A DNA stretch of 64,000 bases from Mustelus asterias (taxonomy: Eukaryota): assembly GCF_964213995.1 (NCBI RefSeq), contig NC_135825.1:12586001-12650000 (forward strand). Reading direction: 5' to 3'. Position numbers and translations under genes: made by a program. Of the stretch, positions 8,795 through 59,653 are shown piece after piece. Each line of letters opens with the position of its first letter. Position 1 is the first letter of the stretch. The notes under the pieces were generated by a model. The model saw nothing but the letters and a program-made list of their open reading frames with translations. It was not told the origin of the DNA and made no database searches.

Positions 8795-10171
8795 CTCTAT
8801 CTCACCTTCAACCGATGCTGTACACTAGATACATCGATGACATTTTCTTCCTTTGGACTCATGGTGAACAATCACTGAAACAACTATATGATGACATCAA
8901 CAAGTTCCATCCCACCATCAGACTCACCATGGACTACTCTCCAGAATCGGTTGCATTCTTGGACACGCGCATCTCCATCAAGGACGGTCACCTCAGCACC
9001 TCACTGTACCGCAAGCCCACGGATAACCTCACGATGCTCCACTTCTCCAGCTTCCACCCTAAACACGTTAAAGAAGCCATCCCCTACGGACAAGCCCTCC
9101 GAATACACAGGATCTGCTCGGATGAGGAGGATCGCAACAGACACCTCCAGATGCTGAAAGATGCCCTCATAAGAACAGGGTATGACACTCGACTCATCGA
9201 TCAACAGTTCCGACGCGCCCCAGCGAAAAACCTCAGAAGACAAACATGGGACACGGTCGACAGAGTACCCTTCGTCGTCCAGTACTTCCCCGGAGCGGAG
9301 AAGCTACGACATCTCCTCCGGAGCCTTCAACATGTCATTGACAAAGACAAACATCTCGCCAAGGCCATCCCCACATCCCCACTTCTTGCCTTCAAACAAT
9401 CGCACAACCTCAAACAGACCATTGTCTGCAGCAAACTACCCAGCCTTCAGGAGAACAGTGACCACGACACCACACAACCCTGCCACAGCAACCTCTGCAA
9501 GATGTGCCGGATCATCGACACGGATGCCATCATCTCACGTGAGAACACCATCCACCAGGTACACGGTACATACTCTTGCAACTCGGCCAATGTTGTCTAC
9601 CTGATACGCTGCAGGAAAGGATGTCCCAAGGCATAGTCCATTGGGGAGACCATGCAGACGCTACGACAACAGATGAATGAACACCGCTCGACAATCACCA
9701 GGCAAGAGTGTTCTCTTCCTGTTGGGGAACACTTCAGCGGTCGCGGGCATTCGGCCTCTGATATTCGGGTAAGCGTTCTCCAAGGCGGCCTTCACAACAC
9801 ACGACAGTGCAGAGTCGCTGAGCAGAGACTGATAGCCAGGTTCCGCACACATGAGGACGGCCTCAACCGGGATCTTGGGATCATGTCACACTATCTGTAA
9901 CCCCCACGACTTGTCTGGACTTGCAAAATCTCACTAACTGTCCTGTCTGGAGACAATACACATTTCTTTAACCTGTGCTTAATGCTCTCTCCACTCAAAT
10001 TGTCTGTACCTTTAAGACTTGATTAGCTGTAAAGACTCGCATTCCAATCATTATTCTGTAAATTGAGTTTGTGTCTTTATATGCCCTGTTTGCTGTTTGT
10101 GAACAGGTCTCCCACTCACCTGACGAAGGAGCAGCGCTCCGAAAGCTAGTGGCGTTTGCTACCAAATAAAC
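8795..10171 (+). mobile_element. Penelope-like element, 5'-truncated (RT C-terminal part + GIY-YIG endonuclease + 3' pLTR)
   Basis: RYIDDIF, LYRKPTD, CKMC, SANVVYLIRC...(*)SIGET...EH GIY-YIG, and GLN ending; one stop at 9634-9636. 8-bp TSD gccactgg (8787-8794 / 10172-10179). Confidence 0.92.
10116..10152 (+). ncRNA. Minimal type I hammerhead ribozyme in the Penelope 3' region
   Basis: UCAC-CUGACGA-A-GGAGC-AGC-GCUCC-GAA-AGCU-A-GUGG: conserved core, stem II, palindromic AGCU stem III, short stem I. Confidence 0.75.
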
Positions 10172-20088: not shown

Positions 20089-20616
20089 TGATGTGGAGAT
20101 GCCGGCATTGGACTGGGGTGAACACAGTAAGAAGTCTCACAACACCAGGTTAAAGTCCAACAGGTTTATTTGGTAGCAAATACCATAAGCTTTCGGAGCG
20201 CTGCTCCTTTGTCAGATGGAGTGGAAATGTGCTCTCAAACAGTGCAAACAGACACAAAATCAAGTTGCAGAATACTGATTAGAATGCGAATCCCTACAAC
20301 CAGTTAGGTCTTAAAGGTACAGACAATGTGGGTGGAAGGAGCATTAAACACAGGTTAAAGACCTGTGTTTTTAACCTGTGTCTTTAACCTGTGTTTAATG
20401 CTCCCTGCACCCACATTGTCTGTACCTTTAAGACCTGGCTGGCTGTAGGGATTCGCATTCTAATCAGTATTCTGCAACTTGATTTTGTGTCTGTTTGCAC
20501 TGTTTGAGAGCACATTTCCACTCCATCTGACGAAGGAGCAGTGCTCCGAAAGCTTATGGTATTTGCGACCAAATAAACCTGTTGGACTTTAACCTGGTGT
20601 TGTGAGACTTCTTACT
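20089..20616. mobile_element. Foldback Penelope-derived insertion (two inverted pLTR ends)
   Basis: Arms 20126-20362 and 20380-20616; TSD ctcaggaaagtca (20076-20088 / 20615-20627). Homologous to the Penelope 3' region at 9960-10170. Confidence 0.88.
20523..20559 (+). ncRNA. Minimal hammerhead ribozyme
   Basis: CCAU-CUGACGA-A-GGAGC-AGU-GCUCC-GAA-AGCU-U-AUGG. The mirror copy at 20183-20219(-) has a core mutation (CUGACAA). Confidence 0.75.
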
Positions 20617-39121: not shown

Positions 39122-39161
39122 ATGGATTTTTCATTTCATTTTCTCGTGATCTCCTTTGCAG
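39122..39161 (+). CDS. Exon 1 (signal peptide) of CD300/pIgR-like activating receptor
   Basis: ATG 39122 encodes MDFSFHFLVISFA plus G, followed by a perfect donor GTAAGT at 39162 (phase 1). Joins the IgV exon in frame to give the hydrophobic leader MDFSFHFLVISFAVVWA. Confidence 0.75.
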
Positions 39162-42084
39162 GTAAGTAACAAACAATTAATGTGAGTGTGCATAGTGAAA
39201 TGAGAATGGTGTGTGTTAGTGTAAGTTTTAGAAGAATGTTAATTTGTAGCAGATTTTTCGTCTAGAATTCTTCTGGAATTGGGCAGCACAGTGGTTAGCG
39301 CTGCTGCCTCGCAGCGCCAGGTACCCGGTTTCAATTCCAGCCTCAGGTCACTGTCTGTGTGGAGTTTGCACATTCTCCCCGTGTCTGTGTGGGTTTCCTT
39401 CAGGTGCTCCGATTTCCTCCCACACTCCAAAGATGTGCAGTTTGGGTGGGTTGGCCATGCTAAATTGCCTTAGTGTCCCGAGAGGTTAAATGGATTTGCC
39501 ATGGTGAATGTCTGAATTTGCAGGGATAGGGCAGGGGAGGGCCTGGGTGAGACGCTCTGTCAGAGAGTCAGTGCAGAATTGATGGGCCAAATGGCCTCCT
39601 TCTGCACTGTAGGGATTCTATGATTCTAATTTATTGTCTTCATCATAAGTTTGTTAATCTTCCCTAACCAATTTTCCTCTAAGTCCAATACCCCAGGTAC
39701 AGGAGCAAGAATATCCAACACAGTGTGTCCATCAACTATGGCTCAGTGGAGAGACAGTAGCCTCGCTAACCGGGTGGTTGTTGGGTTCAAGCCCCACTCC
39801 AGAGACTTGAGCATGCGCACTATGGTAATGCTTCAGTTTAGTCATCAGGGATCAGACATCCTGGCCGGAATTCTGGGACGGGCGAGGTTCGCAGAACGAC
39901 GTTCTCCATTGGCCTCGGGTGGGATCTTACGATCGGACGGGCGAGGTGGTACAATTCCGGCACCCACCTCCCCGACCAGCTGCACGTGAAAGATTTCACA
40001 GATTTGCTGTGCTCATATTGGCTGTTCTGTTTGTTCTTTAGACTGTAACCGTGACTACACTTTCAGCATATGAGTTGGCTGCAAAGGGTTCAGAGGTCAC
40101 AAAAGGTGCCATGCAAATGCAAGTCTTTCATATCAGTGCACCTGTCTTGTATATTTTATATAAATATTTGTTCAAATAATTGGGTGGCACGGTAGCACGG
40201 TGGTTAGCACTGCTGCTTCACAGCGCCAGGGACCTGGGTTCGATTCTCCGGCTTGGGTCACTGTCTGTGTGGAGTTTGCACATTCTCCTCGTGTCTGCGT
40301 GGGTTTCCTCCGGGTGCTCCGGTTTCCTCCCACAGTCCAAAGATGTGCGGGGTAGGTTGATTGGCCGTGCTAAAATTGCCCCTTAGTGTCCTGAGATGCG
40401 TAGGTTAGAGGGATTAACGGGTAAGTATGTAGGGATATTGGGGTAGGGCCTGGGTGGGATTGAGGTCGGTGCAGACTCGATGGGCCGAATGGCCTCTTTC
40501 TGCACTGTAGGGTTTCTGTGATGAATTGAAGCCTATGAATCCCTGCAGATACTGTTCGGGAGGGCAAATTCCCATTCATGTCATAATCTTTTTAATTGAC
40601 TTTTACCTGTTGCTGCTTCACACTCTGCAGCCTCACTGTGCAAGAATACAAAAAACCTAAATGGCAGTTTTAAAAAACAATGTAATGAAGGCGGTGACCT
40701 CTGCTGAGCCCAGAAATGGATGGAATCATGAGGAACTGTCAATCTTGGCTCACATATGTGACGTTCCTGGCCTGAATATTTCACCAGGCGGGCGTGCGCA
40801 CTTGGTGGGGTCAGAAACAGGCGTGAAACGCATTCCTGGCAGCGGTCGGCCTTGGATCTATTTTAGAAATTGAAGAAGTTTATTTATTTGTGTCACAAGT
40901 AGACTTACATTCACACTGCAATGAAGTTACTGTGAAAATCCCCTAGTCGCCACACTCCGGCGCCTGTTCGGGTACACTGGGGGAGAATTTAGCACGGCCA
41001 ATCCACCCAACTAGGACGTCTTTCGGACTGTGGGAGGAAACCGGAGCACCCGGAGGAAACCCACGCAGACACGGGGAGAACGTGCAGACTCCGCACAGAC
41101 AGTCACCCAAGCCGGGAATCGAACCCGGGTCCCTGGCATTGTGGGACAGCAGTGCTAACCCACTGTGCCACTGTGGCAGACCTTGGGTGTCCCTCTGTGT
41201 GGAGTTTGCATGTTTCTCCCCCGTGTCTGTGTGGGCTTCCTCTGGGGCTGGCCAATTAATGGCCATTTCCGGTGTGAAGCGCACTCTGGGAGAGGCTGAG
41301 TGCTGCCAGGAGGGCGGGCTCCAAGGGAAGCGAGGGTGCGGGCTGGCATTTCCATGTTGCCTCTTCTGGGGAAACGGCTGCTGTTGAACTGTGTCAGGGA
41401 GCCCGCGCCCCATGAAAAATAAATATGTGTTAAAACTATGCCACGCGTGTTTGGGCAGCGCGATCACACACAGAACTCAGTTCCCGGATGCATTTGTTCA
41501 TTTTATCTGAACCCTGACCTTTTCATCCCACCCTGAATCCAGGTTGCCAATTGGCCCACCCGACAGACAATGTAAAATCCCAGTCATAGAATCATAGAAT
41601 CCCTCCAGTGCAAAAGGAGGCCATTCGGCCCATCGAGTCAATTTGTTGTTCAATTATTTCAATTGGCAAAGGCGCAATTCCGTCAGGAAACATCTTCTGG
41701 TGCAATTCTTATGTGTTTCCAGGTCAGGTAGCGCCTGAACTTTATACCTAAAATTTTGGCCCCTGTGAGTAGGTGGGAAGGAAAATTGCTGGCATGTGAA
41801 AGGTTGTTCATGCTTCAATCTTTCATTATTTTACAATTACACAGACTCTGCAGCACAGAAACACTCAGAGGGCTGTTCATCTTTGAAGTATTCTACCTCA
41901 GAATGCTGTTGAGGCCCCCAGTTGCTAAGTGTATTCAAGTATGAACAAAGAGCAAAGAAAAGTACAGCACAGGAAGAGGCCATTTGGCCCTCCAAGCCTG
42001 CACCGATCATGATGCCCTAACTAAACTAAAAAAAAAACCTTCTGCTCTTACTCATTCCGTATCGCTCTATTCCCTTCCTATTGG

Positions 42085-42580
42085 GGCACTCGGGGTGAAT
42101 GGGCTCAAACGTTGTGGGGAAAAAGCAGGATTAGGATATTGTGTCGGACGATCAGCCATGATTTAGATAAGATGGAAGCAGGGAAGTTGTTTCCACTGGC
42201 AGGTGAAACTAGAACTAGGGGGCATAGCCTCAAAATAAAGGGGAAGCAGATTTAGGACTGAGTTGAGGAGGAACTTCTTCACACAAAGGGTTGTGAATCT
42301 GTGGAATTCCCTGCCCAGTGAAGCAGTTGAGGCTACCTCATTGAATGTTTTTAAGGCAAGGATAGATACATTTTTGAACAGTAAAGGAATTAAGGGTTAT
42401 GGTGAGCGGAGCTGAGTCCACAAAAAGATCAGCCATGATCTTATTGAATGGCGGAGCAGGCTCGAGGGGCCAGATGGCCTACTCCTGCTCCTAGTTCTTA
42501 TGTTCTTATGTGATGAATGGCGGAGCAGGCTCGAAGGGCCAAATGGCCTCCTCTTGCTCCTATCTTTTATGTTTCTATGT
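42085..42580 (+). mobile_element. Nested CR1 3' fragments
   Basis: TRGHSLKI / NFFTQRVVNLWN-type sequence and two CR1 3' UTRs. Confidence 0.75.
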
Positions 42581-43915
42581 TATTCATGTACCCATCCAGG
42601 TGCCTCTTAAATGTTGCTAATGCGCCTGCTTCCACCACCACCTCTGGCAGCGCGATCCAGGCACCCACCACTCTCTATGCGAAAAATGTCCCCCGCACAT
42701 CTCCCTTAAACTTTCCCCTCTCACCTTGAACCTGTGCCCCCTTGTAATTGAGATTGAGAGATTCCCGGGCATTAAGCGAATCTGGGAATATGGGGATAGC
42801 TTGGGAAATTGGAGTTGAGGTAGATTATCCAGGATCTTATTGAAAGATGCAGTCTCAAGGGGCTGTATTGCCTTCTCCTGCTCCTATTTCTTATGTTACA
42901 TTCTTAGAGCATGTTAAAAGGTCAACTCAGCTGTTTGCTCTATATCTCCCCTCAAGTTCCCTATCACACATGGCAGGCCAATGTGAAATCTGGCTGCCCC
43001 CCGCCCCCCTCCCCGCCCAGTGATATGTCTATAGCTGAGGCCAGACTTCCACCCTTATCAGGGAGTTAGTCCCATATGCAGGAACATGTCTGGAGTATTG
43101 AGTACAGTACCAGCCACCTCAGCATTAAGAAGTGTTTAGATGGCATTTGCAATGCCAAGGTGTGCAAGGTTATCCATAGAAATCCATAGAAACCCTGCAG
43201 TGCAGAAGGAAGCCACTTGGCTCATCGAGTCTGCACCGACCACAATCCCACCCAGGTCCCATTCTCGCATCCCCACATATTTACCCTGCCAATCACCCTA
43301 ATACTAGGGTCAATTTAGCATGGCCAATCAACCTAACCAGCAAATCTTTGGACTGTGGGACGAAACCAGAACACCCGGAGGAAACCCAGGCAGACACGGG
43401 GAAAACGTGCCAACTCCGCACAGACAGTGACCCAAGCCAGGAATCGAACCTGGGTTCCTGGCGCTGTGAGGCAGCAGTGCTAACCACTGTGCCACAGTGT
43501 CGCCGCAGTAAAAGTAAAGTAAAGTTTATTTATTAGTCACAAGTAAGGCTTACATTAACACTGCAATGAAGTTACTGTGAAATCCCCCTAGTCGCCACAG
43601 TCTGGCAGCTGTTTGTGTCAATGCAACTAACCAGCACATCTTTCAGAATGTGGGAGGAAACCGGAGCACCCGGAGGAAACCCACGCAGACACGGGGAGAA
43701 TGTGCAAACTCCACACAGAAATGACCCAAGCCAGGAATCGAACCCGGGTCCCTGACACTATGAGGCAGTAGTGCTAACCACTGTGGCACAGTGCCACCCA
43801 CATGGACCAAGTGCTGGAAAATGGGATTAAAGTAGTTGGGTGGTTTGTCCTTGACCGGCATTGATGCGATGGGCCAAAGGGCCGTTTTCTGTGCTGTAGA
43901 TTTCTATGACTCTAT

Positions 43916-44042
43916 GGGCGGGATTTTCCAGCCACGCTCCTCTCAAGACCGGAAAATCCTGCCCGAGGTCAATGAACCTTCGCATGGTCCGTGTCCCACC
44001 CACTACGATTCCCGTGGTAGGCGGGATGGGAGAATTCCGCCC
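43916..44042. mobile_element. MITE, PIF/Harbinger-like
   Basis: TIRs GGGCGGGATTTTCC / GGGCGGAATTCTCC; 3-bp TSD TAT. Confidence 0.7.
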
Positions 44043-44069
44043 TATGACGCTATGACCTCATTTATGGAA

Positions 44070-44585
44070 AGAAATTAATGCATTGGAAGTAGTTTGGAGA
44101 AGGTTTACCAGGCTAATACCTGGAATGGGCGCGTTGTCTCATGAGGAAAGGTTGGACAGGCTAGGCTTGTATCCACTAGAGTTTAGAAGACTAAGAGGTG
44201 ACTTGATTGAAACAAATCAGATCCTGAGGGGTATTGACTGGGTGGATGTGGGGAGGGTGTTTCCTCTTGTCAAAGAATCTAGAACTAGGGTCACTGTTTA
44301 AAAATAAGGGGAGATGAAGCAAAATGTTTTCTATCAGAAGATTGTGAGTCTTTAGATCTCTCTTTCTGAAAAGGCGACGGAAGCAGAATCCTTGAATATC
44401 TTTAAGGCAGAAGTGGATAGATTATTGGTACACAAGGGGGTTGGAGGGTAAAAGGTTACCGGGGGTTGACAGGAAGCAGATTTGAGGTTACTATCAAATC
44501 AGCCAGGATCTTATTAAACAGTGTAGCAGACTCAAGGGGCTGAATGGCCTATTCCTGCTGCTTGCTCACATGTTCATAAGTTCAT
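44070..44585 (+). mobile_element. CR1 3' fragment
   Basis: RRFTRLIPGM...LEFRRLRGDLIE. Confidence 0.8.
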
Positions 44586-45210
44586 GGACAGAATTCTCTG
44601 ATTGTGCTGGTCTAAAAGCCGGAAATTCCCGCCCGACTGTCAATGGGATTTCACCCACCCGTTAAAATTCCCGTGGCGGACAGGATGGGAGAATTCCGGC
44701 CTATATGCATGTGGAGAGTTGGCAGGTAATCTGATTGGCTGCCAGCTCTGTAATCCCAGAATGCCATGAGACAGGAGCAGCTAAGACTATAACCGGTCCT
44801 CAAGAAGGGGGTGGGTGTACACTGACTTAAAGGTGAGTCCGGGGATTGGGGGCGGGGGGGATAGGTGCAAGGCCCCAGAGAGGAGGGGGGGTGGGTATCA
44901 TGTTAGAAAGGCCAGGGGGAGAGGCTTAAAAATGAGGGAGGGATTGTCATCTTAGCGGCAGTGCCCCTGATGAGCACAGTGGAACACCCCTCCTCCCCAC
45001 TGTCCCAAAAAAGTACGGGGCTGGCTGACTTTTTTCCGTCTGCCCTGGAGGGCCAAACCTTGTGGTGGAGATGGAGTGTGTGAGACACTTAAGTGGTTGT
45101 TAATTGTCCATGTAAGGCAGCAGAGCAAATGTGCTGCCTGATGCCTCACCACTCCCCACCCCACCCCCACTGTAGGATGGGGTGAATCGGGAGTGGGCGG
45201 GATGGGATGG

Positions 45211-45519
45211 TTTACAAAATAATGGTTGGAATGCGAGTCTTTACAGGTAATCAAGTCTTAAAGGTACAGACAATGTGAGTGGAGAGAGCGTTAAGCACAG
45301 GTTAAAGAGATGTGTATTGTCTCCAGCCGGGACAGTTAGTGAGACTTTGCCAACTCGCATTCCAACCATCATTTTGTAAATTGAGTTTGTGTCGTTATAT
45401 GCCCTGTTTGTGAACAGAACTCCCACTTACCTGACGAAGGAACAGCGCTGTGAAAGCTAGTGGCTTTTGCTACCAAATAAAGCTGCTGGACTTTAACCTG
45501 GTGTTGTGAGACTTCTTAC
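45211..45519. mobile_element. Penelope pLTR fragment with 5' inversion and degenerate hammerhead
   Basis: 45211-45350 is antisense and 45353-45519 is sense to the Penelope 3' region. CUGACGA...GAAAGCUAGUGG at ~45427-45463, with stem II disrupted. Confidence 0.8.
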
Positions 45520-46699
45520 CCTGTTTTGCTAATCAGGTGCTAATCTTGTGGCTGTGAGTTTTAAAAAAATGCTTCCCCCCTCATTCAGATTCACAGATAA
45601 GAGTCAGAAGGAGCCGCAGAATAAATCAGCGCGCTACAGCAAACTGCTCATCCTGTTTGAAGTTTCAGTCAAACCAACAAAGAGAACCACAGCCCACACC
45701 CGACACCACATCAACTGCAGCAGAAAACCACAGCACTTGCATCGTCAGGTCCTCTGTTACCCAGCCTGCTGTGTAATCGAGCAGGGTGTGCATTGGGTCC
45801 TTCCTGCAGTGTGGCCTTCCACTCCAGGCAGTGTCCCTGTTATTTGCTGCGTCGCCTGAAGCAGGCCTGTGAAGCATCATCCTGAATTGAATGATTTTAG
45901 CCCACAGCGAGTGCAAATTGGATAAGATAACATCGACGGTGTGGACCTCGCCGGTCACACAGTCTGCTTTTCTCGCCATATTATAGAACCTAGAATCCCT
46001 ACAGTGCAGAAGGATTCCCTATGGCCCATCGAGTCTGCACCAACCACAATCCCACCCAGCCCCTATCCCCGTAGCCCCACGTATTTACCCTGCTAGTCCC
46101 CCTGACATTAAGTGGCAATTTAGCATGGCCAATCAACATAACCTGCACATCTTTGGACTGTGGGAGGAAACCCACGCAGACACGGGGGATAATGCCCAAA
46201 CTCCACACAGACAGTGACCCAAGCCGGGAATCGAACCTGGGTCCCTAGCACTGTGAGGCAGCAGTGCTAACCACTGTGCCACCGTATTCAATACTGACGA
46301 AGAAAAGAATCCTGGAGGTGCACCACACCGTCACACTGGTGGACGGGACCTGAAAAAGCCAGCAATGATGGGTTTCCAGAGATTTGTTTTTTAAAAGGGT
46401 GCACCAATCTCCAGTTTAAAAAAAGGAACCCTCACCCCCACACACAGAGACCCCGCCCCCCCTATGCACAAAGAGATCCCCCACATGCACATGGGTAAGT
46501 TCCCCCCCCCCCCGCCCCCACCACCCATGGCAACCCTCCCACCTTCACAGACAGGGGAATCACACCCTACAAGGACACTGGGAAACCTGCTCCCCAAGGA
46601 GACCCGCAGAGGAACCCCCCCCTCTCCCCCCCCAACTGTGTACTGCCCCCGGCATCCTGACACTGCCCCTATGGTAAACAGCGGTGCAAAATTCTAGAC

Positions 46700-47230
46700 T
46701 CACAGAATTGTTACACTGCGGAAAGAGGCCATTTGGCCTATCGTGTTTGCACCAGCTCTCCAAACTAGCATCATGACTTAGTCTCATTCCCCTGCCTTTT
46801 CCCCCCGCCCCCCGTACCCCTGCACATTGTTTCTATACCAATAATCACCCAATGCCCTCTCGAATGCCTCGACTGAACCTGTCTCCACCACATTTCCAGG
46901 CAGCGTATTCCAGACCCAAGCCACTCGGCGTGTGGATAGGTTTTTGTCACATCACACTTGCTTCTTTTGCAAATCACTTTAAGTCTGTGCCCTCTCATTC
47001 TTTTACCAGCGGGAACAGTTTCTCCCTGTCTACTCTGGCCAGCCCCCTCATGATTTTGAACATCTCTCTCTTATCAAATCTCCTCTTAGCCTTCTTCTCT
47101 CCAAGGAGAACAGTCCCAACCTCTCCAATGACTCTGAGGTCCAGTTAGTGTCTTGCATAAGTTCAGCATAACCTTGCTCTTGTACTCAATGCCTCTATTA
47201 AGAAAGCCCAGAATACCAGATACTTTCCCT
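46700..47230 (-). mobile_element. Degenerate CR1 3' fragment
   Basis: ILGFLNRGIEYKSK...; RGHRLKVICKRS. Confidence 0.7.
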
Positions 47231-49223
47231 TTCAGCAACTGCTCTTTAGGGTCCTCCTCCTTCACGTATTGTGTCTTGACAGGGCATTGGTGACCAGGGG
47301 CTTCCATTGGATTCCTAGATTCTCCTTCAGGCTGAAGTGTTTTGCCATTACCTTCTGCAGAATGGCCGCCAGGAAACTTTCCCACTTTTGTTGCCTGCTG
47401 TCACGCATATTGGAGGAATTTACAGGCTGTTAACTAACCTGTTTGGCCACGCTCTGAACTTTGCCATCATGTCCTAGAGTGGGACTTGAACCCAAAGTTC
47501 CTGGCCCAGAGGTAGGGATGCTAGCCATTGCATCACAAGACCACCGTCCCTCTTTAAGATCAGGTTATTGAAATCGATAGTATGAGGAAAGATTGTGAGT
47601 GGGTAAGAGAAATAAATGCCCGGTTGGGCATTGCCGATAAGGAGTGCCCACTCACAGTGTAATGGTCTGCCCTTGATACTCCATATCTTAATATCCTAGA
47701 ATCAGAAGGTTGAATTTTATTTCAGAGGCTAATGTCCCACGACCAGGGCTGAAAGTGAGAGGCGAACCTGCTTGGGCTGGTGGCATCCTGGCAATAGCCA
47801 ATTAAATGGCCACCACTGGGGCTGATATCCATAGTAAACCCACTAAAACCGTCGTCCAAACCAGGAAGCCAGCAGCTCAGACGCCTCAACAGCGCCACTA
47901 GTGGCAGTGGCCATTAATGGCGCTGCACCTGGAGGATGAGGGCACATCGCTGGCCATGTGCAAAGACAGGAAAATGGTGCCTGGGCATGCCAGTATCAGG
48001 CTGGCAGGCAGGTCCTGACAGGATCAGTGGGAGGGGGGAGTTCACAGAGGGCAGGCAACAACCCCGGCTACTGGATGGGGGAGGCTCATGGAGTTTCCAA
48101 AAATATGTCCCCACAAGCCAATAGGAGACCACCAGGTTGCTGTGGATCACCTCTCATTTCGGCAGTCTATCCCTGGATGCTGGTAAAATGCCTGTGGAGG
48201 AGGGAAAAGGCCTTTAATTGGCTACTTAAGTAGCTAAACTGGACTCCCAGTTGGCATTGCATGTGCCAACCTTTCTGCCACTGACAAAATGGTCTTTTGG
48301 TGTCAAGGGGTAGGGGAGAGAGTATGGCACAGAGATAGAGAATCAGTCACGACCATATTGAATGGTGGAGCAGGTTAGAGGGGCCGAGTGGCCTACTCAT
48401 GCTGCTATTTTCCATGTTTCTAAAATCATCAGGCATAGGCCCCACAGCATCCTGTGCCATTTTGCCGGCCTCCTTGCTTCCCAGCGCATTGTCAAGGGCG
48501 GGTAAAATTCTAACCATAATATAAGCACAGAAGAAGGCCAACCAGCTGGCTACATTTTACTGATCTGTGTGCAGGGATCCAGAGAGAAAGATCTCCAATT
48601 ACAGATTCCATGAGGCAAACCGTGAGCCATAGGAACTGCAAGAAGCAATACCTTAGACTAGAGTTGGCTGGACTCAGCTCATTGGGAATCTGAACAATGA
48701 GAGTGAGGCACAGATACAATGAAGTTTTTAAAATTTAAACTTATTTTATTAGTGTCGCAAGTAGGCTGACGTTTACACTGCAATGAAGTTACTGTGAAAA
48801 TCCCCAAGTCGCCGCACTCCGGCGCCTGTTCGGGTACACCGAGGGAGAATTTAGCACGGCCAATGCATCCAACCAGCACGTCTTTCGGACTGTGGGAGGA
48901 AAGCAGAGCATCAAGACAGGGGGGAGAACTCCACACAGACAGCGACCCAAGCCAGGAATCGAACCCAGGTCCCTGGCTTTGTGAGGCAGCAGTGCTAACC
49001 ACTGTGCCACCGTGCTGTGGTATGAACTGTCTTTATTTCAGACTAATATTAATTTCTGAGGACGAAAAATCCAGAAGTCCCTCAGGCCGCATCATTAGAA
49101 TGATCAAAATGGGATAGTATGTTTACGAGTCTTAATGCACATTTTTTAAAGTACTCTTTACCCTATTAAACTGTTAGGTTGATTTATGTTTTCTTGTACT
49201 TGTTATGCTTTCACATTGTACAG

Positions 49224-49556
49224 TTGTTTGGGCTGCATCAAATGGACCGGATGCTGTAAATGGAACGGTGGGACAATCAGTCCATATCAAGTGTCGATAC
49301 GACAAATATTACAGCAATTATCAAAAGTACTGGTGCAAAGGTGATGATCAGGAAGACTGTGCTATTGTGGTGCAAACCCACGGCCCAAAGAAGACAAGTA
49401 CTGATGGGAGAATCACCATTGTCGCTGATGATGAAGCAGGAGAATTTACAGTCACAATGGAACAGTTAACACAGAGCGATGAGGGCTTATACTGGTGTGG
49501 AATTGAAAGATTGTTATGGGACCTCCAAAGTCCTGTGGAACTTAAAATCAATGAAG
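49224..49556 (+). CDS. Exon 2: V-set Ig domain, CD300/pIgR/CMRF35-like
   Basis: Acceptor ttgtacag| at 49223; donor GAAG|gtagg at 49557; phase 1-1, 333 nt. Motifs GQSVHIKC, KYWCKG-x5-C (CX7C second disulfide), FTVTMEQL and DEGLYWCG are typical of CD300/pIgR-type V domains. Confidence 0.93.
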
Positions 49557-50184
49557 GTAGGATCTGAATGGTTTTATTAATTGTGTGCATCTGTAAGCTG
49601 TATAGTTTTATATTGCTTTCAGTACAATTTAGGATATGTTTTTCAACATTTCCAAAGTGGTTTTCAGTGGGAAGTTAGAATTCTGTTAAGGGTAAACCAG
49701 CAGAATGATGCAAAATAACAAATTGGGCTATCTGACCACGTGTCACGGTTGCCCCTCGCTGACTAAAATACTGGGGTTGGGGAGGGGAGCCCACCTACCC
49801 AGCAGAAGATGGCTGACTGGCTATTAATAGACTAAAGGATGAGAATTCCACCCCTCCCTTGGGGAGCTGCTGCCCACTTGTACTTCAGGAGGAGGTTGGA
49901 ACCGGTGAGAGTTTGGGGATCTTGCAGGCACCCGCAGAGGCGCAAGGGGGTTGGAGGGGTGTGAGGGTGGACGGATGGTGTTTGAGAGTCCATGGGAGGG
50001 AAGGAGGGCTGGAGGGGGTGATGGGCGGGGGGGAGGGGGGGTGGAGAAAAACCTTGGGGACCCTATGATGGGCCCAGGAGGGCAAGTTAATGAGGGAGGG
50101 CCCCTGCCCTCCACCAGCTCATACAGGAAAACCTGTTGGCCGCCTGGCCTTAGGTCTTTTCCCTGCCACTGGTTCAATCCTAGT

Positions 50185-50690
50185 CATAGAGTCGTAGAGT
50201 CATAGAGGTTTACAGCATGGAAACAGGCCCTTCGGCCCAAATTGTCCATGCCGCACTTTCTTTTTTAAAACCCCTAAGCTAATCCCAATTGCCCGCATTT
50301 GGCCCATATCCCTCTAAACCCATCGTACCCATGTGACTGTCTAAATGCTTTTTAAAAGACAAAATTGTACCCGCCTCTACTACTACCTCTGGCAGCTTGT
50401 TCCAGTCACTCACCATCCTCTGTGTGAAAGAATTGCCCCTCTGGACACTTTTGTATCTCTCCCCTCTCCCCTTAAACCTATCTCCTCTAGTTTTAGACTC
50501 CCCTACCTTTGGGAAAAGATATTGACTATCTGGCTGATCTGTGCCCCTCATTATTTTATAGACCTCTATAAGATCACCCCTCAGCCTCCTACGCTCCAGA
50601 GAAAAAAGTCCCAGTCTATCCAGCCTCTCCTTATAACTCAATCCATCAAGTCCCGGTAGCATCCTAGTAAATCTTTTCTGCATCCTGGTA
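50185..50690 (-). mobile_element. CR1 3' fragment
   Basis: QKRFTRMLPGL...RLRGDLIEVYKIM. Confidence 0.88.
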
Positions 50691-51751
50691 AATCCCTCCA
50701 GGGTAAGATCTTAAGTGGACACCAATTGCCCACCAAAGGGCCACAGTTGACCCAAAGGCACTAACACTACCCTACCATTGGTAAAATTGCACTGGGGACA
50801 GGGATGGGCAGTGTTGTAATATGCCTTTATTGGGCAGCAGCATGACATCACTAGAAGGGAAGTGTGTCATGGAATCTAGTCTTTCCTGACTTGTCACAAT
50901 GGATTCCATGACAGATGTGGTGAGCCAGCTAAACACCCATTGACTTTGCAGGAAGCAGAAGATCCCACCAGTGGGCGGGGCCAGGCAACTATGGTCTTAG
51001 TTTCACTTTTCCCTCTGAGCAGAGCACAGAACACATGTCTGATGTCTTCAGGTTTTCTACCTTTGTCCAAATATTCTCACTTGCCTCGTCTCAATAAATG
51101 AACCCACAATGTATTTATACAATCCCTTCTGAACGATCAGTGCCTGGATCATTATAACATAACAGACATGGAGGCGGCATGTACACCCCCCACTGCATTG
51201 AAGATACCATTCCCCCCACCCCAACCATCACACCCTCTGGCAAGCGAGCATTAAATTCAACCCAAAGATGTATAATTTTAGTACTAATATACCCATGTAA
51301 TTTTTCACGTTTTTAAATCACAAATTTAGGGAGGCATGGTGGCACAGTGGTTAGCACTGCTGCCTCACAGCACCAGAGACCTGGGTTCAATTCCGGCCTC
51401 GGGTCACTGTCTGTGTGGAGTTTGCATGTTCTCCCTGTGTCTGCGTGGGTTTCCTCCGGGTGCTCCAGTTTCCTCCCACAGTCCAAAGATGTGCGGGTTA
51501 GGTGGATTGGCCATGCTAAATTGACCCTTAGTGTCAGGGGAATGGACAGGATAAATATGTGGGATTACAGGAAGAGGGCCTGGGTGGGATTGTGGTCGGT
51601 GCAGACTCGATGGGCCAAATGGCCTTCTTCTGCACTGTAGGGATTCTATCATTCTATGAAATTGCAAATTTATCTATGATGGTTTAATCAGATGTGTAAC
51701 GCAACTTGGCAGTGCAATCTAACAACAATGAGGTTATATAATTTTTAACAG

Positions 51752-51800
51752 GTCCCAAAGTACTTCTTGCAATCTCTCCATCTGACAAGGAAATTCAAAG
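51752..51800 (+). CDS. Exon 3: short stalk (GPKVLLAISPSDKEIQ)
   Basis: Acceptor atttttaacag| and donor AAG|gtaaat. Phase 1 in and phase 2 out, exactly what bridges the IgV exon to the TM exon without a stop. Confidence 0.7.
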
Positions 51801-52353
51801 GTAAATGTCATGTCTGTTTAAAAAGGCCCAATCTGAACAATTATTCTGTCTCTACGCAATTGTGACTGCACTAAAGAAGGAACACCGAGGAGATTGATGA
51901 GGATGTGGGCCAGGACTGAAGAATGTGCAGTCATGAAGAAAGATTGGGTAGGCCGGCACTGTTTCCCTGGGAACAAAGGAGGCAAAGGGAAGATATAACT
52001 GAGACGTATAAAGTTATGAGGAGCCAGACAGACGGATGAAAAGGATTTATTTCCTTTAGCAGAGAGGCCAAAAAATAAGAGGGCATAGATTCAAAGTAAT
52101 TGGTAGAATTATTCAAGGGGAGGTGAGGAATGATTGTGGGGGTGAATTGACCTCTTGGGAGGATGGTCGAGGCAGAAATTCTCATTGCATCTTAAAAATA
52201 TAGCTGGAAATGGATTTGAAATGGCCTAGCTTACAGGGCTATGGACCAAGAGTTGGAATGTGGCATTAGGCTGAGAACACTCATTTTCGGGGCAGGCACA
52301 GACATGCCGGGCTGAATGGCCTCCTTCTGTTCCATTTTTCTGTGCAAAAATTG

Positions 52354-52680
52354 TGTAATGTCCCATTGACTGTGTTATGAGAATGCAATGGCTTCAATCA
52401 GGCCATTGAGGTTGGCCTATTGGAATACGAGCTCCCTGATTAAGGGCCCCTAAGTGAATTTGATTTTGTTTATTTGGTTGGAAGCAAAAAGATGTCCCTG
52501 ATTAAGGGCCAAATTGATGGGCCGACCAGGGAGCCTCTTGCCTTGTATTTAACCAGGCGTGTCAGTTCCTCAGGGGGTCCTAGGGTAGACTGCTGACTGA
52601 AAGCACTCTGTATGCCGTTGTCAGACTTGTAAATAAAGGGATTTTAGTGAAGGGACTTCTGCCTCTGATGTCTTATTACA
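52354..52680 (+). mobile_element. Possible solo LTR
   Basis: TGTAAT...ATTACA termini with internal AATAAA; no TSD seen. Confidence 0.45.
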
Positions 52681-53522
52681 GAGAGGTATTAAATTGTTTT
52701 TCTGGCAAGGTGCAGGCTGCCTTGAGAGTAGGATTTCAATATGATGAAGACAAATGCATTTTGGACACTCATGCCACAACTGTAAGCAGATATTTGTGAC
52801 TCTGCAATAATGTAATATGTGCAACATTGAACTGGCAGCTAGTTCTACATCTCCTGCTAAAGTCAATGAAAATAAAAGTCAGGAGAGATGGCACTATCAG
52901 TTGGCTGCCTCTTGCATTCTAATGCCAAATAGTTCAAATCCAACCCAGACCCAGAAGTGAGTGCCCTGTTACACCATGGATATATTTTTGTCATTCTTTA
53001 ACCACCAAAATCCACAACCCATTGCATTTGGAAGAATTTCCAGGACACTTATTGTTTTGTTCATTCTTTTATGGGATGTGGTCATCCCTGGCAAGCCCAG
53101 CATTTGTTGTCCATCCCTAATTACCCTTGGACCAGGTCAGTTCAGAGGGCAGTTAGCGGTCAACCACATTGCTGTGGATCTGGAGTCACATGTAGGCCAG
53201 ACTGGGTAAGGATGGCAGATTTCCTTCCCTAAACGATAATAGTGAACCAAATGGTTTTTTTTGCAACCATCAATGATTGTTTCATGGTCACCATTGCTAA
53301 GACCAGCTTTCAATTCCAGAATTTATTAATTGAATTGTGATTCCTTCCTTCGCTTTACCGATGATCAAAGGTAGGCTGATTGATCAGGTTGGATTTGTCC
53401 TGCTTTTTGTGTACAGGAGATACCTGGGCAATTTTCCACATGACTGGGTAGATGTCAGTGTTGTAGCTGCACTGGAACATCTTGGCAAGGCAATTTTGAT
53501 TTGATTTGATTTATTATTGTCA

Positions 53523-54197
53523 CATAAGAACATAAGAACATAAGAAATAGGAGCAGGAGTAGGCCATCTAGCCCCTCGAGCCTGCCCCGCCATTCAATAA
53601 GATCATGGCTGATCTGAAGTGGATCAGTTCCACTTACCCGCCTGATCCCCATAACCCCTAATTCCCTTACCGATCAGGAATCCATCTGTCCGTGATTTAA
53701 ACATATTCAACGAGGTAGCCTCCACCACTTCAGTGGGCAGAGAATTCCAGAGATTCACCACCCTCTGAGAGAAGAAGTTCCTCCTCAACTCTGTCCTAAA
53801 CTGACCCCCCTTTATTTTGAGGCTGTGCCCTCTAGTTCTAGCTTCCTTTCTAAGTGGAAAGAATCTCTCCACCTCTACCCTATCCAGCCCCTTCCTTATC
53901 TTATACGTCTCTATAAGATCCCCCCTCAGCCTTCTAAATTCCAACGAGTACAAACCCAATCTGCTCAGTCTCTCCTCATAATCAACATCCCTCATCTCCG
54001 GTATCAACCTGGTGAACCTTCTCTGCACTCCCTCCAAGGCCAATATATCCTTCCGCAAATAAGGGGACCAATACTGCACACAGTATTCCAGCTATGGCCT
54101 CACCAATGCCCTGTACAGATGCAGCAAGACATCTCTGCTTTTATATTCTATCCCCCTTGCGATATAGGCCAACATCCCATTTGCCTTCTTGATCACA
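53523..54197 (-). mobile_element. Young CR1 3' fragment
   Basis: ORF 53624-54079, (CATAAGAA)n tail; nearly identical to 63563-64000. Confidence 0.92.
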
Positions 54198-54199
54198 TG

Positions 54200-54665
54200 T
54201 ATTAGTATACAGTGAAAAGTATTGTTTCTTGCACGCGATACAGACAAGGTATATCGTTCATAGAGAAGGAAAGGAGAGAGTGCAGAATGTAGTGTTAGTC
54301 ATCGCTAAGGTGTAGAGAAAGATCAACTTCATGCGAGGTAGGTCCATTCAAAAGTTTGATGGCAGCAGGGAAGAAGCTGTTCTTGAGTCGGTTGGTACGT
54401 GACCTCAGACTTTTGTATCTTTTTCCTGATGGAAGAAGGTGGAAGAGAGAATGTCCGGGGTACTTAATTATGCTGGCTGCTTTTCCGAGGCAGCGGCAAG
54501 TGTAGATAGTGTCAGTGGGTGGAAGGCTGGTTTGCGTGATGGATTGGGCTACATTCACGACCCTTGTCTTGCGGTCTTGGGCAGAGCTGGAGTCATACCA
54601 AGCTGTGATACAACCAGAAAGAATGCTTTCTATGATGCATCTGTAGAAGTTGGTGAGAGTTGGAG
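54200..54665 (-). mobile_element. Rex1/Babar-type 3' fragment
   Basis: FYRCIIESILSGCITAWY...RLKNSFFP; same family as 16815-17370. Confidence 0.8.
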
Positions 54666-54669
54666 AGAA

Positions 54670-55140
54670 TCTTGGAGCCTTCAGTACTACTGCTGAAATA
54701 TTGTCAGGACCCATTTCCTTTGCAGTATTCAGTGCCCTCAGCCGTTTCTTGATACCATGTGGAGTGAATCGAATTGGTTGAAGACTGACATCTGAGATGC
54801 TGGAGACCTCCAGAGCAGGCTGAGATGGATCTTCCACTCAGTACTTCTGGCTGAAGATTATGACAGATGTTTCAGCCTTATCCTTTTGGTGCTCCCAATA
54901 TTGAGGTTGAGGATATGAGAGTCCTCCAGTGCGTTGTTTAATTGTCCACCACCATTCACGGCTGGATGTGGCAGGGCTGCAGAGCTCAGATCTGATCCAT
55001 TGGTTGTGGAATTGCTTAGCTTTGTCTATTGCTGGCTGCTTATGTTGTTTGGAACGCGAGTAGTCCTGTTTGGTAGCTTCACCAGGTCGGCAGTTCATTT
55101 TTAGGTATGTCTGGTGTTTCTCCTGGCATGTCCTGTTGCA
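54670..55140 (-). mobile_element. Non-LTR retrotransposon ORF2 fragment (host of the nested CR1 and Rex1 insertions)
   Basis: LCSPATSSREWWWTIKQ and KEMGPDNISAVVLK pre-RT motifs; clade not resolved. Confidence 0.65.
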
Positions 55141-55204
55141 TTGAACCCCTCTTATTGATCTGTCTGCTGAGTGAAATAGCTCCGTCAACATCTGTGGAGA
55201 GAAG

Positions 55205-55330
55205 GGACAGGATTTTCCAGCCAGATCATTGAGATTGTCTGGTCCAGCTGAAAGACAGTGGATTTTTGGCTGAGCTACCAAGTCCCCTGCGGCAGTGGGT
55301 TCAGCTTGATAAGGCCAGAAAATCCCGGCC
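55205..55330. mobile_element. MITE, PIF/Harbinger-like
   Basis: Imperfect 16-bp TIRs; 3-bp TSD AAG. Confidence 0.6.
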
Positions 55331-55703
55331 AAGATAACCTTTCAGTTCTGATGCAGAGTTTGCATCTGAGACGTTGCACTCAGTTGCTCTTTCCATCACT
55401 GCTGACTGACCTGTTTCCACAGCTTCTGTTTTTGCATCAACATCTTTGCAGAAGGAGATTGTCAGAAGCTGATGTTTTTCTGTCATCACATTACCATATC
55501 TAGTGAGAAAAGGGAACTGGGTATTTGCCACTTCATCGCCCCCTAGGCACAGGCTAGTCCCTGAACGTGAAGCACATTCCAACTCGATACTTCCTATGCA
55601 CTCAGATAATGGATAAACTATCACAGGTCAAAGTGAGTGCAGTTCAGCAATTTGCCAGATGGACCAGAAGCATAGAAGCAGCAAAGACCACAATATTCCA
55701 CCA

Positions 55704-55978
55704 GAGGCACGGTGGCACAGTGGTTAGCACTGCTGCCTCACAGCGCCAGGGACTCGGGTTCGATTCCTGTCTTGGGTCACTGTCTGTGTGGAATCTGCCT
55801 TTGCCTGCATGGGTTTCCTCCCACAGTCCAAAAGACGTGCTGGATAGATGCATCGGCCATGCTAAATTCTCCCTCAGTGTACCCGAACAGGCGCCAAAGT
55901 GTGGCGACTAGGGGATTTTCACAGTAACTTCATTGCAGTGTTAATGTAAGCCTACTTGTGACTCTGATAACTTTAACT
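55704..55978 (+). mobile_element. HE1-related V-SINE with alternative 3' tail (type B), representative copy
   Basis: HE1 head and core, but tail ...gtggcgactaggggattttcacagtaacttcattgcagtgttaatgtaagcctacttgtgac. Copies at ~7915, 12221, 13340, 18495, 24182, 28420, 31433, 32315, 32935, 40878, 43510, 48735, 58799, 59762 and 61636. Confidence 0.85.
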
Positions 55979-56069
55979 TGAGCGTAACCAAATGATTCAC
56001 ATGTTGAAGTTAACTCCATAGATTCAGGAATCAATTTTGATGAAACCATTTTGCCTCCTATCTTCATAG

Positions 56070-56169
56070 GCAGAAGAATTACCTGTACTATTTCATATGG
56101 AGTGTTTTACGTTGGATCTTCCTCGCCATTCTCCTCCTTTGGGCCATTTTAGCCAAACTGAAAATGTAA
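56070..56169 (+). CDS. Exon 4: transmembrane helix with intramembrane Arg and a ~4-residue tail
   Basis: Acceptor cctcctatcttcatag| (phase 2). Encodes RQKNYLYYFIWSVLRWIFLAILLLWAILAKLKM*, with Arg codon CGT at 56110-56112 and TAA at 56167-56169. Donor GTAAGT follows at 56175. Confidence 0.82.
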
Positions 56170-57096: not shown

Positions 57097-57862
57097 CAGA
57101 TGTTTCCTGAGTTTTGCAAAATATACTGAGGAAACCAAGCAAGGGGACTTTGAGGGGGCTGAACGAGTGACGGGCTAGCAATCCTTTAAGTACTAAGATC
57201 TCACACCCACTTCCTTGTCTACGTGAAAGCCTTTAACATACGGGTCTGTCCTGAGAGTGTGTTTTCACTGTTCTAGTGGGTACTGGTCATCTCCAGAATG
57301 TGTGGTCTCCTCTGAGGAGTCTTCATCCTCTTTCTGCGCCACATCCTATGGGATGCTTGAAAGTTTTCTGGGAGATGGAAGACATGAATTAGAGCTGTCA
57401 AATAAAGTGTTAAATCATCAATGTGTACGTTATCATATTTGAGTGGCCACTGAGACCAAGTTAACTTAAGTAAGTTTTGTATGGAGTATGACTGTGATTG
57501 TTAATTCTGTCACTGGGTATCTGAAGACCTCTAAGTCTCCAGATGGTCTGACACATTGACACTCAGCTTATCGCCAGTGACTCCTCGTCAGAAGCTGTCA
57601 GTACGCAGATTGTCGGAGAGTCACCTCCAGTTTTCTGCCTCTCCCTGGGATTCTGTGATATCTTCTCCTGAAAGGAGGAGGCGAAGTGATCTCTGAGTGT
57701 GAAAAATAGAATACGTAGCGAGGTCGCAAAGCCATTTGTGGAGGATCACGGCGAGGGATGGGTGTGACGTTGTATTATGATGGGGGTGAGATTCAGTGAT
57801 GAATGGTCAGATGGGAAGGTGGGGAGGTGCGTAGACAGAGAGGGGTGGGTAGGCTTGGAAAG

Positions 57863-58066
57863 TAAGAAGTCTCACAACACCAGGTTAAAGTCCAACAGGT
57901 TTATTTGGTAGCAAATACCATAAGCTTTCGGAGCACAGCTCCTTCGTCAGATGGAGTGGATATCTGTTTGCAACAGATATCCACTCCATCTGACGAAGGA
58001 GCTGTGCTCCGAAAGCTTATGGTATTTGCTACCAAATAAACCTGTTGGACTTTAACCTGGTGTTGA
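57863..58066. mobile_element. Foldback Penelope-derived insertion (perfect 94-bp-arm hairpin)
   Basis: Arms 57875-57968 and 57972-58065; TSD taggcttggaaag / tagacttggaaag. Confidence 0.9.
57986..58022 (+). ncRNA. Minimal hammerhead ribozyme (mirror copy at 57918-57954, minus)
   Basis: CCAU-CUGACGA-A-GGAGC-UGU-GCUCC-GAA-AGCU-U-AUGG. Confidence 0.75.
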
Positions 58067-59134
58067 TAGACTTGGAAAGGCAGAGAGTAAGAAGGGTTGG
58101 GGTAAGGTGTAGATCAGGGTATATTTGAATGTGCCGTGTCACTCACCTTCCTGACCTGCCTTGACCATTAAGCCACTCCCAGCAGAAGGAGGGTCCTGGG
58201 CCTGTTCACCTCCTCAGTGACTTTTAACCACACCTCTACACCAGTCTTCTTCCTCCCATCAGCAAGTAACAGAAACTCACTGTGGGTGGGTCCCTTACAA
58301 CATAAAGCAGGGAAGCAACAGCAAAGTTTGACATTGCCTTGCAACATTGTGGGCCCGTAGCTCCAGCTTCTGATTCTGTTTCAGCCCCTGTACAATGGCT
58401 TCATGTCACACCCTCTGAGGATCCTGCTAAATAGTTGAGCTGAAAAGGTCAGATTCAGCTCATCGCCACGCCCATCTCGGGCTAATTGTTGGCAAATCTG
58501 GAAGTCAGATGATAGTATCATGGCTGCTTTGAGAATCTACTGACAAAGAGGTTTCCGAAACTTCCTGACACACAGCTGAGTTCTGCTGTATTAACTCTGC
58601 ACTTTGACCCAGTTTCAGTGGAGTACTGCCACGATAGGGTTGCTTAATATGATACACAGAGAAGGAAGGAAAGGTTCTCATGGGCGAGCAAGTTGGTTTC
58701 TATCTTTGATAAGCACAGAAAAAAAAAGAACTTACAATTTGTGAATTGTGTTACATTTAAAACTGATTCTTTCTTTCTCTTAACACATTTCCTTAATTGG
58801 GCAGCAAGGTGGCACAGTGGTTAACACTGCCGCCTCACAGTGCCAGGGATCCAGGTTCAATTCCCAGCTTGGATCACGTAGAGTCTGCACATTCTCCCAG
58901 TGTCTGTGTGGGTTTCCTCTGGGTGCTCCTGTTTCCTCCCACATCCGAAAGAGGTGCTGGTTAGGTGCTAAATTCTCATTCAGTGTACCCAAACACCCAC
59001 CTGGAGTGTGGTGACTAGGGGATTTCCACAGTAACTTCATTGCAGTGTTAATGTAAGCCTACTTGTGACACTAATAAATGAATTTTAAACTACAAATTCA
59101 ATCTTCCTTTTAATCAACTGTGTTATAACAAAAG

Positions 59135-59530: not shown

Positions 59531-59653
59531 GATAATGGAATCTGTTACATGACCATGACATCAGCACCCACAATGGAGAATTTCAGTCAACCAAACAGTA
59601 AAGCTATCTTCATCTTGCCATTATTCATCACATGTGTGGTGTGGACTGCCTGA
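59531..59653 (+). other. Candidate terminal exon of the activating receptor (3' UTR, or cryptic tail with YMTM)
   Basis: Strong acceptor cctttgtttttcatttccag| at 59530. Phase-0 frame reads DNGICYMTMTSAPTMENFSQ... The donor at 56175 needs a downstream partner exon. Confidence 0.45.

What the first reader, a model, noticed from the sequence alone, without database searches (positions are those of the whole stretch)
57850..58079. Perfect foldback mini-element made of two back-to-back hammerhead ribozymes
94-bp arms with no visible mismatch and a 3-nt centre. Each arm holds an intact minimal hammerhead plus AATAAA, and the whole is bounded by a 13-bp TSD, so it inserted as one unit. It lies in the putative last intron of the receptor gene, where it would form long dsRNA or a cruciform. 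Penelope hammerheads and inverted pLTRs are known. A ~200-bp non-coding palindrome reduced to the ribozyme end may be a distinct non-autonomous form.
Basis: partly seen in the sequence, partly recalled or inferred. Interest (0 to 1): 0.7.

Follow-up and report, generated by a model that had tools for sequence, protein, structure and literature searches.

The report
Folded-back scrap of a shark retrotransposon
This 200-base mirror-image sequence in a shark genome is most likely a dead leftover of one aborted insertion of a known jumping gene, in which two short copies of its end were joined back to back, a known and ordinary pattern.

Summary
The palindrome is real: 94/94-bp arms, 3-nt centre, a minimal hammerhead and AATAAA in each arm, and a 13-bp target duplication with one mismatch. 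It is the extreme 3' end of a Neptune-like Penelope retrotransposon of a shark, present twice head-to-head. The same family occurs at three other places in the window: a copy still attached to its RT/GIY-YIG reading frame, a 5'-inverted copy, and a second head-to-head pair with 237-bp arms, a different centre, a perfect 13-bp duplication and the known one-sided tail. The centre falls on a mini-hairpin native to the family, so a shared centre could recur without self-propagation. The two hammerheads lie on opposite strands. In any transcript the sense one is buried in a 94-bp helix (68.5 kcal/mol penalty), so cleavage is unlikely. Head-to-head inverted ends with palindromic junctions, and opposite-strand hammerhead pairs, are published for Penelope elements. 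The intron placement is unproven: the element lies 1.7 kb past the stop codon of a CD300-like gene. No genome-wide count was possible, so a self-propagating family is unlikely but not excluded.

The parts
57850..57862 (+). Left copy of 13-bp target-site duplication; its last 2 nt coincide with the element's usual 3' end (priming microhomology, inferred)
57863..57968 (-). Left arm: 5'-truncated 3' end of the Penelope-like element, ending at the same point as copies B-right and C-right; 57863-57874 has no partner in the right arm
57918..57954 (-). Minimal type I hammerhead of the left arm
   Evidence: mirror image of the right one
57963..57977 (.). Junction: 6-bp stem around a 3-nt centre (57969-57971); corresponds to a mini-hairpin native to the family, and 57963-57972 is identical to element-sense bases 20490-20499 of copy B
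57972..58065 (+). Right arm: 94-nt 5'-truncated 3' end of the element, stopping 12-14 nt short of the usual end
57986..58022 (+). Minimal type I hammerhead: stem I 4 bp, CUGANGA core plus extra A, stem II 5 bp, GAAA, 1-bp helix III with palindromic loop; predicted cut after 58018
   Evidence: pattern as in PMC4209133
58035..58040 (+). AATAAA in the right arm (mirror at 57900-57905 on -)
58067..58079 (+). Right copy of the duplication; its one differing base makes 6 nt match the element's own continuation
20089..20616 (.). Sibling B: head-to-head pair, arms 20126-20362 and 20380-20616 (229 of 237 identical), 17-nt stuttered centre, 38-nt tail on the left only, perfect 13-bp duplication 20076-20088 / 20615-20627; left hammerhead core mutated
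8803..10171 (+). Sibling A: 5'-truncated copy with the end of the RT and the GIY-YIG region (one in-frame stop at 9634-9636, frame ends 9897), 3' UTR and hammerhead; 8-bp duplication 8787-8794 / 10172-10179
45211..45519 (.). Sibling C: 5'-inverted copy (45211-45350 on -, 45353-45519 on +, 28-nt overlap), decayed hammerhead, no duplication found
39122..56169 (+). Host context: CD300/CMRF35-like gene; coding pieces 39122-39160, about 49223-49556, 51751-51800, 56070-56169 (stop 56167-56169); splice donor at 56175

Best explanation
A dead-on-arrival product of one aborted integration of an endonuclease-bearing Penelope-like retrotransposon (Neptune-like) in a shark. Shown: both arms are the family's last 94-106 nt, joined head-to-head at a mini-hairpin native to the family and framed by a 13-bp duplication. 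Inferred: the element's GIY-YIG nuclease made staggered nicks 13 bp apart; reverse transcription began at the element's 3' start region and stopped after about 100 nt at the native hairpin just upstream of the hammerhead; the complementary hairpin bases closed the structure. I favour (about 55:45) two cDNAs primed from the two nicked target strands and annealed at the hairpin over a single cDNA snapping back on itself. The reason: the centre reads through on the bottom strand, primed from the right, yet the left arm holds 12 element bases the right arm lacks, and each outer end has its own microhomology to the target. The product keeps no reading frame, lacks the upstream part of the terminal repeat and the tail, and its ribozyme is locked in duplex. 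It does nothing for itself; if transcribed it would be a dsRNA hairpin.
For: Family links in the window: 89 of 94 identity to copy B and 83.8% over 80 nt to the 3' end of copy A. A's frame is 91% identical to a named Mustelus asterias protein with RT and GIY-YIG Pfam matches below curated cut-offs. Sibling B has the same architecture with other dimensions and the one-sided tail. Of six family 3' ends, three stop at one point, one has the 38-nt tail and two stop early. Native hairpin: 2 perfect stems of at least 5 bp in A's 274-nt 3' UTR, one being hammerhead stem II and the other the site of this centre. Two older head-to-head pairs of a second repeat family are in the window, 2 of its 3 loci. 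Hammerhead fold penalty is 68.5 kcal/mol in both transcript directions. Literature: inverted pLTRs with palindromes at the junction, 8-10-bp duplications and an optional tail (PMC3846280); inverted 5'-truncated copies and a 30-40-bp one-sided tail (PMC8557442); opposite-strand hammerhead pairs about 100-700 bp apart (PMC4209133); a Penelope protein nicks and extends both strands from two internal start sites in vitro (PMC11167929).
Against: Only one 64-kb window was available, so copy number of this exact 200-bp form is unknown. The immediate parent subfamily is not in the window: B, the closest copy, lacks the perfect short hairpin (3 differences in the first 8 arm bases), which is seen in the more distant A and C, so the parent's sequence at the centre is inferred. 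A's own protein pieces had no Pfam match. The hammerhead cores here are 40 bp apart, closer than the published 100-700 bp. One locus cannot settle the joining mechanism; PMC3846280 argues for self-priming on an antisense template.
Confidence: 0.85

Rival explanations
1. A self-propagating non-autonomous foldback element, copied as a unit by the Penelope protein in trans.
For: It has a target duplication and perfect arms. Non-autonomous PLE derivatives exist (tandem retrozymes, bioRxiv 10.64898/2026.07.22.740005; non-autonomous Chlamys, PMC8557442). pLTR sequences can mobilise in trans (PMC3846280). Hammerhead cleavage was not needed for insertion in vitro (PMC11167929), so a silenced ribozyme does not rule mobility out.
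Against: No second copy with this centre in the window; sibling B differs in arms, centre and ends. The described non-autonomous forms are head-to-tail. Neither arm carries the tail or sequence beyond the usual 3' end, and in the Anolis element sequence up to and past the start sites was required (transfer to this family is inference). A transcript would be a 94-bp duplex.
Confidence: 0.06
2. A single truncated insertion that was later turned into a palindrome by host replication or repair template switching at the native hairpin.
For: The centre lies on a native hairpin. Perfect arm identity next to a mismatched duplication could reflect later homogenisation.
Against: One duplication frames both arms, no flank is inverted, and the left arm has element bases absent from the right. 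B's two ends match two distinct element end points.
Confidence: 0.05
3. A sequencing or assembly fold-back artefact.
For: Perfect long inverted repeats with tiny loops are a typical chimeric-read signature (own knowledge). Reads were not available.
Against: The sequence returns to unique flank through a target duplication, the outer ends differ, and three older diverged palindromes of the same layout exist in the window.
Confidence: 0.03
4. A host-retained regulatory hairpin (microRNA-like or 3'-UTR element of the CD300-like gene).
For: It may lie in a 3'-UTR intron or in read-through of the gene. Inverted Penelope copies gave siRNAs matching the inverted regions in Drosophila (PMC3681739).
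Against: Perfect arms suggest youth. The Rfam microRNA matches are below cut-off and only reflect a hairpin. No expression or conservation data.
Confidence: 0.02

Closest known systems
Head-to-head inverted pLTR insertions of endonuclease-bearing Penelope-like elements (PMC3846280; PMC8557442)
   Same: Two 3' ends pointing outward, palindrome at the junction, variable target duplication, asymmetric outer ends; sibling B shows the 30-40-bp one-sided tail.
   Different: No reading frame or direct pLTR between the arms; arms about 100 nt, against 181-218-bp pLTRs in the rotifer examples; no tail on this copy.
Minimal hammerheads of metazoan PLEs, including opposite-strand pairs (PMC4209133)
   Same: 4-bp helix I, extra nucleotide before helix II, G10.1-C11.1 pair, palindromic helix III region; pairs on opposite strands about 100-700 bp apart were reported in Schistosoma.
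   Different: Helix II is 5 bp; cores are 40 bp apart; the pair forms a perfect hairpin that buries the ribozyme.
Non-LTR retrozymes (bioRxiv 10.64898/2026.07.22.740005)
   Same: Short, non-coding, PLE-derived, type I hammerhead; reported in one cartilaginous fish genome.
   Different: Retrozymes are tandem head-to-tail units with ribozymes on one strand; this is inverted.
MITEs / foldback DNA transposons (recalled)
   Same: Short non-coding palindrome with a target duplication.
   Different: The arms are a retroelement 3' end with unequal outer ends, not transposase-bound terminal inverted repeats.

Membership tests
EN+ Penelope-like element | Linked to an RT plus C-terminal GIY-YIG reading frame | tested here: met
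   Through sibling A, not in the element itself: 91% to P0018 (RVT_1 E 4e-6, GIY-YIG E 8e-4, both below curated cut-off) and 81-82% to P0020/P0021; P0020 passes the RVT_1 cut-off. A's own pieces gave no Pfam match.
EN+ Penelope-like element | Hammerhead in the terminal repeat | tested here: met
   Core and stems present; 43 of 45 cells pair over 5 distinct rows with one compensatory pair in helix I, though 49 of 500 shuffles did as well. No Rfam hammerhead match.
EN+ Penelope-like element | 5' truncation, inverted copy, variable duplication, optional one-sided tail | tested here: met
   D, B and C are inverted; duplications of 13, 13 and 8 bp at D, B and A, none found at C; 38-nt tail on B.
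Neptune clade | CX2-5CxxC zinc-finger-like linker between RT and nuclease | tested here: met
   CX4CX2C precedes the nuclease in A's translation; definition from PMC8557442. Nematis elements also have such a linker.
Neptune clade | Groups with Neptune RTs in a tree | not testable with these tools
   No clade-labelled PLE proteins were among the search results.
Non-LTR retrozyme | At least two tandem units with hammerheads on the same strand | tested here: not met
   The two hammerheads are on opposite strands; criterion.
Active self-cleaving hammerhead | Can adopt the catalytic fold in its transcript | tested here: not met
   Computed only: pair probabilities 1e-47 (stem I) and 5e-18 (stem II) in the full hairpin, against 0.46 and 0.82 in a single arm.
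Active self-cleaving hammerhead | Measured cleavage | not testable with these tools
   Needs an in vitro assay.
Self-propagating non-autonomous family | Many dispersed copies with the same ends and centre | tested here: inconclusive
   0 other copies with this centre among the 3 other family loci in 64 kb; no eukaryotic genome collection was available.
MITE | Symmetric terminal inverted repeats abutting the duplication, related to a DNA transposon | tested here: not met
   Outer ends differ by 12 nt and are retroelement 3' ends; definition recalled.

The most novel reading that the evidence does not exclude
The hairpin just upstream of the hammerhead is a programmed fold-back point, and the resulting 200-bp palindrome is itself re-mobilised by the Penelope protein. 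That would be an inverted, ribozyme-silenced non-autonomous family, unlike tandem retrozymes, seeding shark genomes with perfect dsRNA hairpins against the parent element. A weaker version (a recurrent hotspot, no self-propagation) I put near 0.35; it would be useful for separating twin priming from snap-back.
Probability: 0.06. Interest if true: 0.65.

Novelty: new member of a known kind. Interest (0 to 1): 0.2.

Why it matters
As one locus it matters little: it is a very short example of a published Penelope insertion pattern. Its use is as a specimen. How Penelope elements make head-to-head ends is still open, and young shark copies like this keep both junctions and the centre readable. At the density seen here (4 head-to-head pairs among 7 loci of two families in 64 kb), a genome-wide table could test priming from both target strands against self-priming. 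If the form proved self-propagating it would add a new kind of non-autonomous retroelement.

Tried and rejected
Rfam: nothing at gathering score; MIR399, mir-977 and four weaker matches rejected as generic or chance hits. Unconstrained folding of a single arm was no more stable than shuffles (z about -0.6 for all three stretches), although the 51-nt stretch folded into stems I and II. A scan of bacterial and archaeal genome contigs for the hammerhead motif found 0 matches, as expected for an animal repeat; viral and metagenome contig collections stayed unchecked. Pfam on A's two protein pieces and on its read-through C-terminal part: no match. Mapping the host gene with longer CD300-like proteins found only the Ig exon; the shorter orthologue P0054 found all four coding pieces. 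The exon-prediction script missed the stalk exon at its thresholds, so its acceptor scores are crude. No convincing duplications at sibling C or at the two second-family palindromes. The third second-family locus (38559-38615) first looked inverted but is a single arm. Covariation in the hammerhead did not beat shuffles clearly (49 of 500). Eight successful paper searches listed no paper whose title or abstract opening describes a stand-alone 200-bp palindromic PLE family or this shark family; most listed papers were not opened, subscription journals and Repbase/Dfam were not searchable, and no supplements were read, so this is weak evidence of absence.

Full report
Observation. The inverted repeat is at the stated place: arms 57875-57968 and 57972-58065, 94 of 94 complementary, centre TGC. 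No other perfect inverted repeat with a loop up to 50 nt in the window exceeds 25 bp. The flanking 13-mers at 57850 and 58067 match at 12 of 13; such a match arose at 727 of 200000 random position pairs.

The hammerhead. Each arm has helix I (4 bp), the CUGANGA core, an extra A, helix II (5 bp), GAAA and a one-pair helix III with a palindromic loop. This fits the minimal metazoan PLE hammerheads of PMC4209133 (parts 1 and 2 of 4 read), which are thought to work as dimers and cleave poorly in vitro. Across five distinct family copies in the window 43 of 45 cells pair and helix I has one compensatory change, but 49 of 500 shuffles did as well, so this is only suggestive. Rfam found no hammerhead. 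The cut-site base here is U, recalled as the weakest of the allowed bases; copies A and C have A.

Host and family. The window is from a shark: the neighbouring gene matches a named Mustelus asterias CMRF35-like protein in all four coding pieces. A BLAST of the element against the window gave three further loci. Copy A (about 8803-10171) joins the same 3' end to a frame with the end of an RT and a GIY-YIG-type region, 91% identical to a Mustelus protein and 81-83% to Scyliorhinus and Heptranchias proteins. The Pfam support comes from those relatives and is partly below cut-off; A's own pieces had no match. A CX4CX2C linker points to the Neptune clade as defined in PMC8557442 (passages); no tree was possible. 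Copy C is a 5'-inverted fragment. Copy B (20089-20616) is the key control: head-to-head, arms of 237 bp with 8 mismatches, a 17-nt centre of short stutters of the arm end, a perfect 13-bp duplication and a 38-nt tail on one side. Of the six 3' ends, three stop at one point, one has the tail and two stop early. A second repeat family, one copy of which has a decayed hammerhead-like core at 6185, is head-to-head at 2 of 3 loci; its PLE identity rests on that core alone. In all, 4 of 7 loci are head-to-head.

The centre. Copies A and C carry a native 5-bp hairpin (CTGTT, four-base loop, AACAG) just upstream of the hammerhead; in A's 274-nt 3' UTR the only other stem of that strength is hammerhead helix II, and there are 6 in A's 1369 nt. 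Both arms of the finding begin exactly at the 3' strand of that hairpin. The ten bases 57963-57972 are also identical to B's sense bases 20490-20499, a short distance upstream of the equivalent point, so the three centre bases look templated by the element after a skip of about 9 nt. B itself lacks the perfect short hairpin, and the true parent subfamily is not in the window, so this is inference.

Mechanism. Shown: geometry, junction microhomologies, family links. Inferred: staggered nicking by the element's nuclease, short reverse transcription, closure at the hairpin. The strand that reads through the centre as cDNA is the bottom one, which starts at the right end, but the left arm is the longer. 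A pure snap-back from the right could not have supplied the extra 12 bases without later trimming or a switch back to RNA. Two cDNAs primed from the two target strands and annealed by the hairpin bases explain this directly. That fits the in vitro finding that an Anolis Penelope protein cuts and extends both strands and starts at two internal sites that define the tail (PMC11167929, parts 1 and 2 of 4 read). PMC3846280 (passages and the Discussion) reads such junction palindromes as self-priming, probably on an antisense template. One locus cannot decide; I put it at about 55:45 for twin priming.

What it does now. Probably nothing for itself. The two ribozymes are on opposite strands. In either direction of transcription the antisense arm comes first and the sense ribozyme second, and forcing the hammerhead fold costs 68.5 kcal/mol against a hairpin of about -182 kcal/mol. 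It lacks a frame, the upstream terminal repeat and the tail. Against over-reading this: hammerhead cleavage was dispensable for insertion in vitro. If transcribed it would be a dsRNA substrate, as described for inverted Penelope copies in Drosophila (PMC3681739, passages). Whether it is transcribed is open: it lies 1.7 kb past the stop codon (56167-56169) of the CD300-like gene, beyond a donor at 56175. Three AATAAA and five candidate acceptors lie before it, while the best-scoring acceptor by a crude score lies after it at 59531.

Comparison with the known. Head-to-head inverted pLTRs with junction palindromes, duplications and one-sided tails are standard for EN+ PLEs (also PMC8969392, passages). 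Opposite-strand hammerhead pairs 100-700 bp apart are stated in PMC4209133. Non-autonomous PLE derivatives in animals are tandem retrozymes (bioRxiv 10.64898/2026.07.22.740005, part 1 of 5 and passages), a test this element fails. PMC12910113 (passages) added nothing. Eight searches showed no description of this shark family or of a stand-alone 200-bp palindromic family, judged from listings; repeat databases and supplements, where such consensus sequences would sit, were not seen.

Verdict. A real, probably young, unusually short member of a known structural class. At B's arm divergence about 3 mismatches would be expected in 94 bp, so it is younger than B or has been homogenised. No eukaryotic genome collection was available (bacterial and archaeal contigs gave 0 matches; viral and metagenome contigs unchecked), so a self-propagating family is not excluded, at about 6%. 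Interest 0.2.

Noticed in passing
window 58086-58094 and 57861-57869: The right flank, a few bases past the duplication, holds a 9-mer identical to the first 9 bases of the element's cDNA; 38 of 5000 local shuffles and about 22 of 5000 random window positions did as well. It may reflect RNA-target pairing during site choice, or a longer duplication with an 8-nt deletion in its left copy.
   Followed up: partly
window 20076-20088, 57850-57862, 10172-10181: The duplications of B and D are both 13 bp, both contain GGAAAG, and GCAGAG follows closely in the right flank; A has GGAAA at its right junction. Possible target preference, chosen after the fact on three loci.
   Followed up: partly
window 6119-6283, 34912-35054, 38559-38615: A second, older repeat family: two head-to-head pairs and one single arm; the first has a decayed hammerhead-like core at 6185. 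Probably another Penelope family.
   Followed up: partly
window 20363-20379: The centre of copy B is made of short repeats of the arm's inner end, suggesting repeated slippage and re-priming at the join.
   Followed up: partly
window 45211-45519: Copy C has a 5' inversion with a 28-nt overlap, like twin-priming products of LINEs (recalled); it lies in intron 1 of the CD300-like gene.
   Followed up: partly
window 39122-56175: CD300/CMRF35-like gene with no cytoplasmic tail, an arginine in the membrane segment and a splice donor 5 nt after the stop codon; looks like an activating-type receptor.
   Followed up: partly
window about 540-850: Likely terminal exon of an upstream receptor gene with four tyrosine motifs of ITIM type, suggesting a paired inhibitory/activating cluster.
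   Followed up: no
window 2905-4761, 13958-15233, 53624-54091, 62636-63190: Several LINE-type reverse transcriptase fragments, one in an open frame of 618 codons; not classified.
   Followed up: no
window 33649-33897: A diverged (68%) inverted pair of another repeat, unrelated to the Penelope ends.
   Followed up: no
window 8011-8532, 56472-56618, 58804-59021, 59763-60000 and many others: A very abundant short interspersed repeat with dozens of copies in both orientations; recalled as resembling the tRNA-derived SINE of sharks, not tested.
   Followed up: no
window 27500-28350: A C-rich tandem array of short units giving long spurious frames.
   Followed up: no
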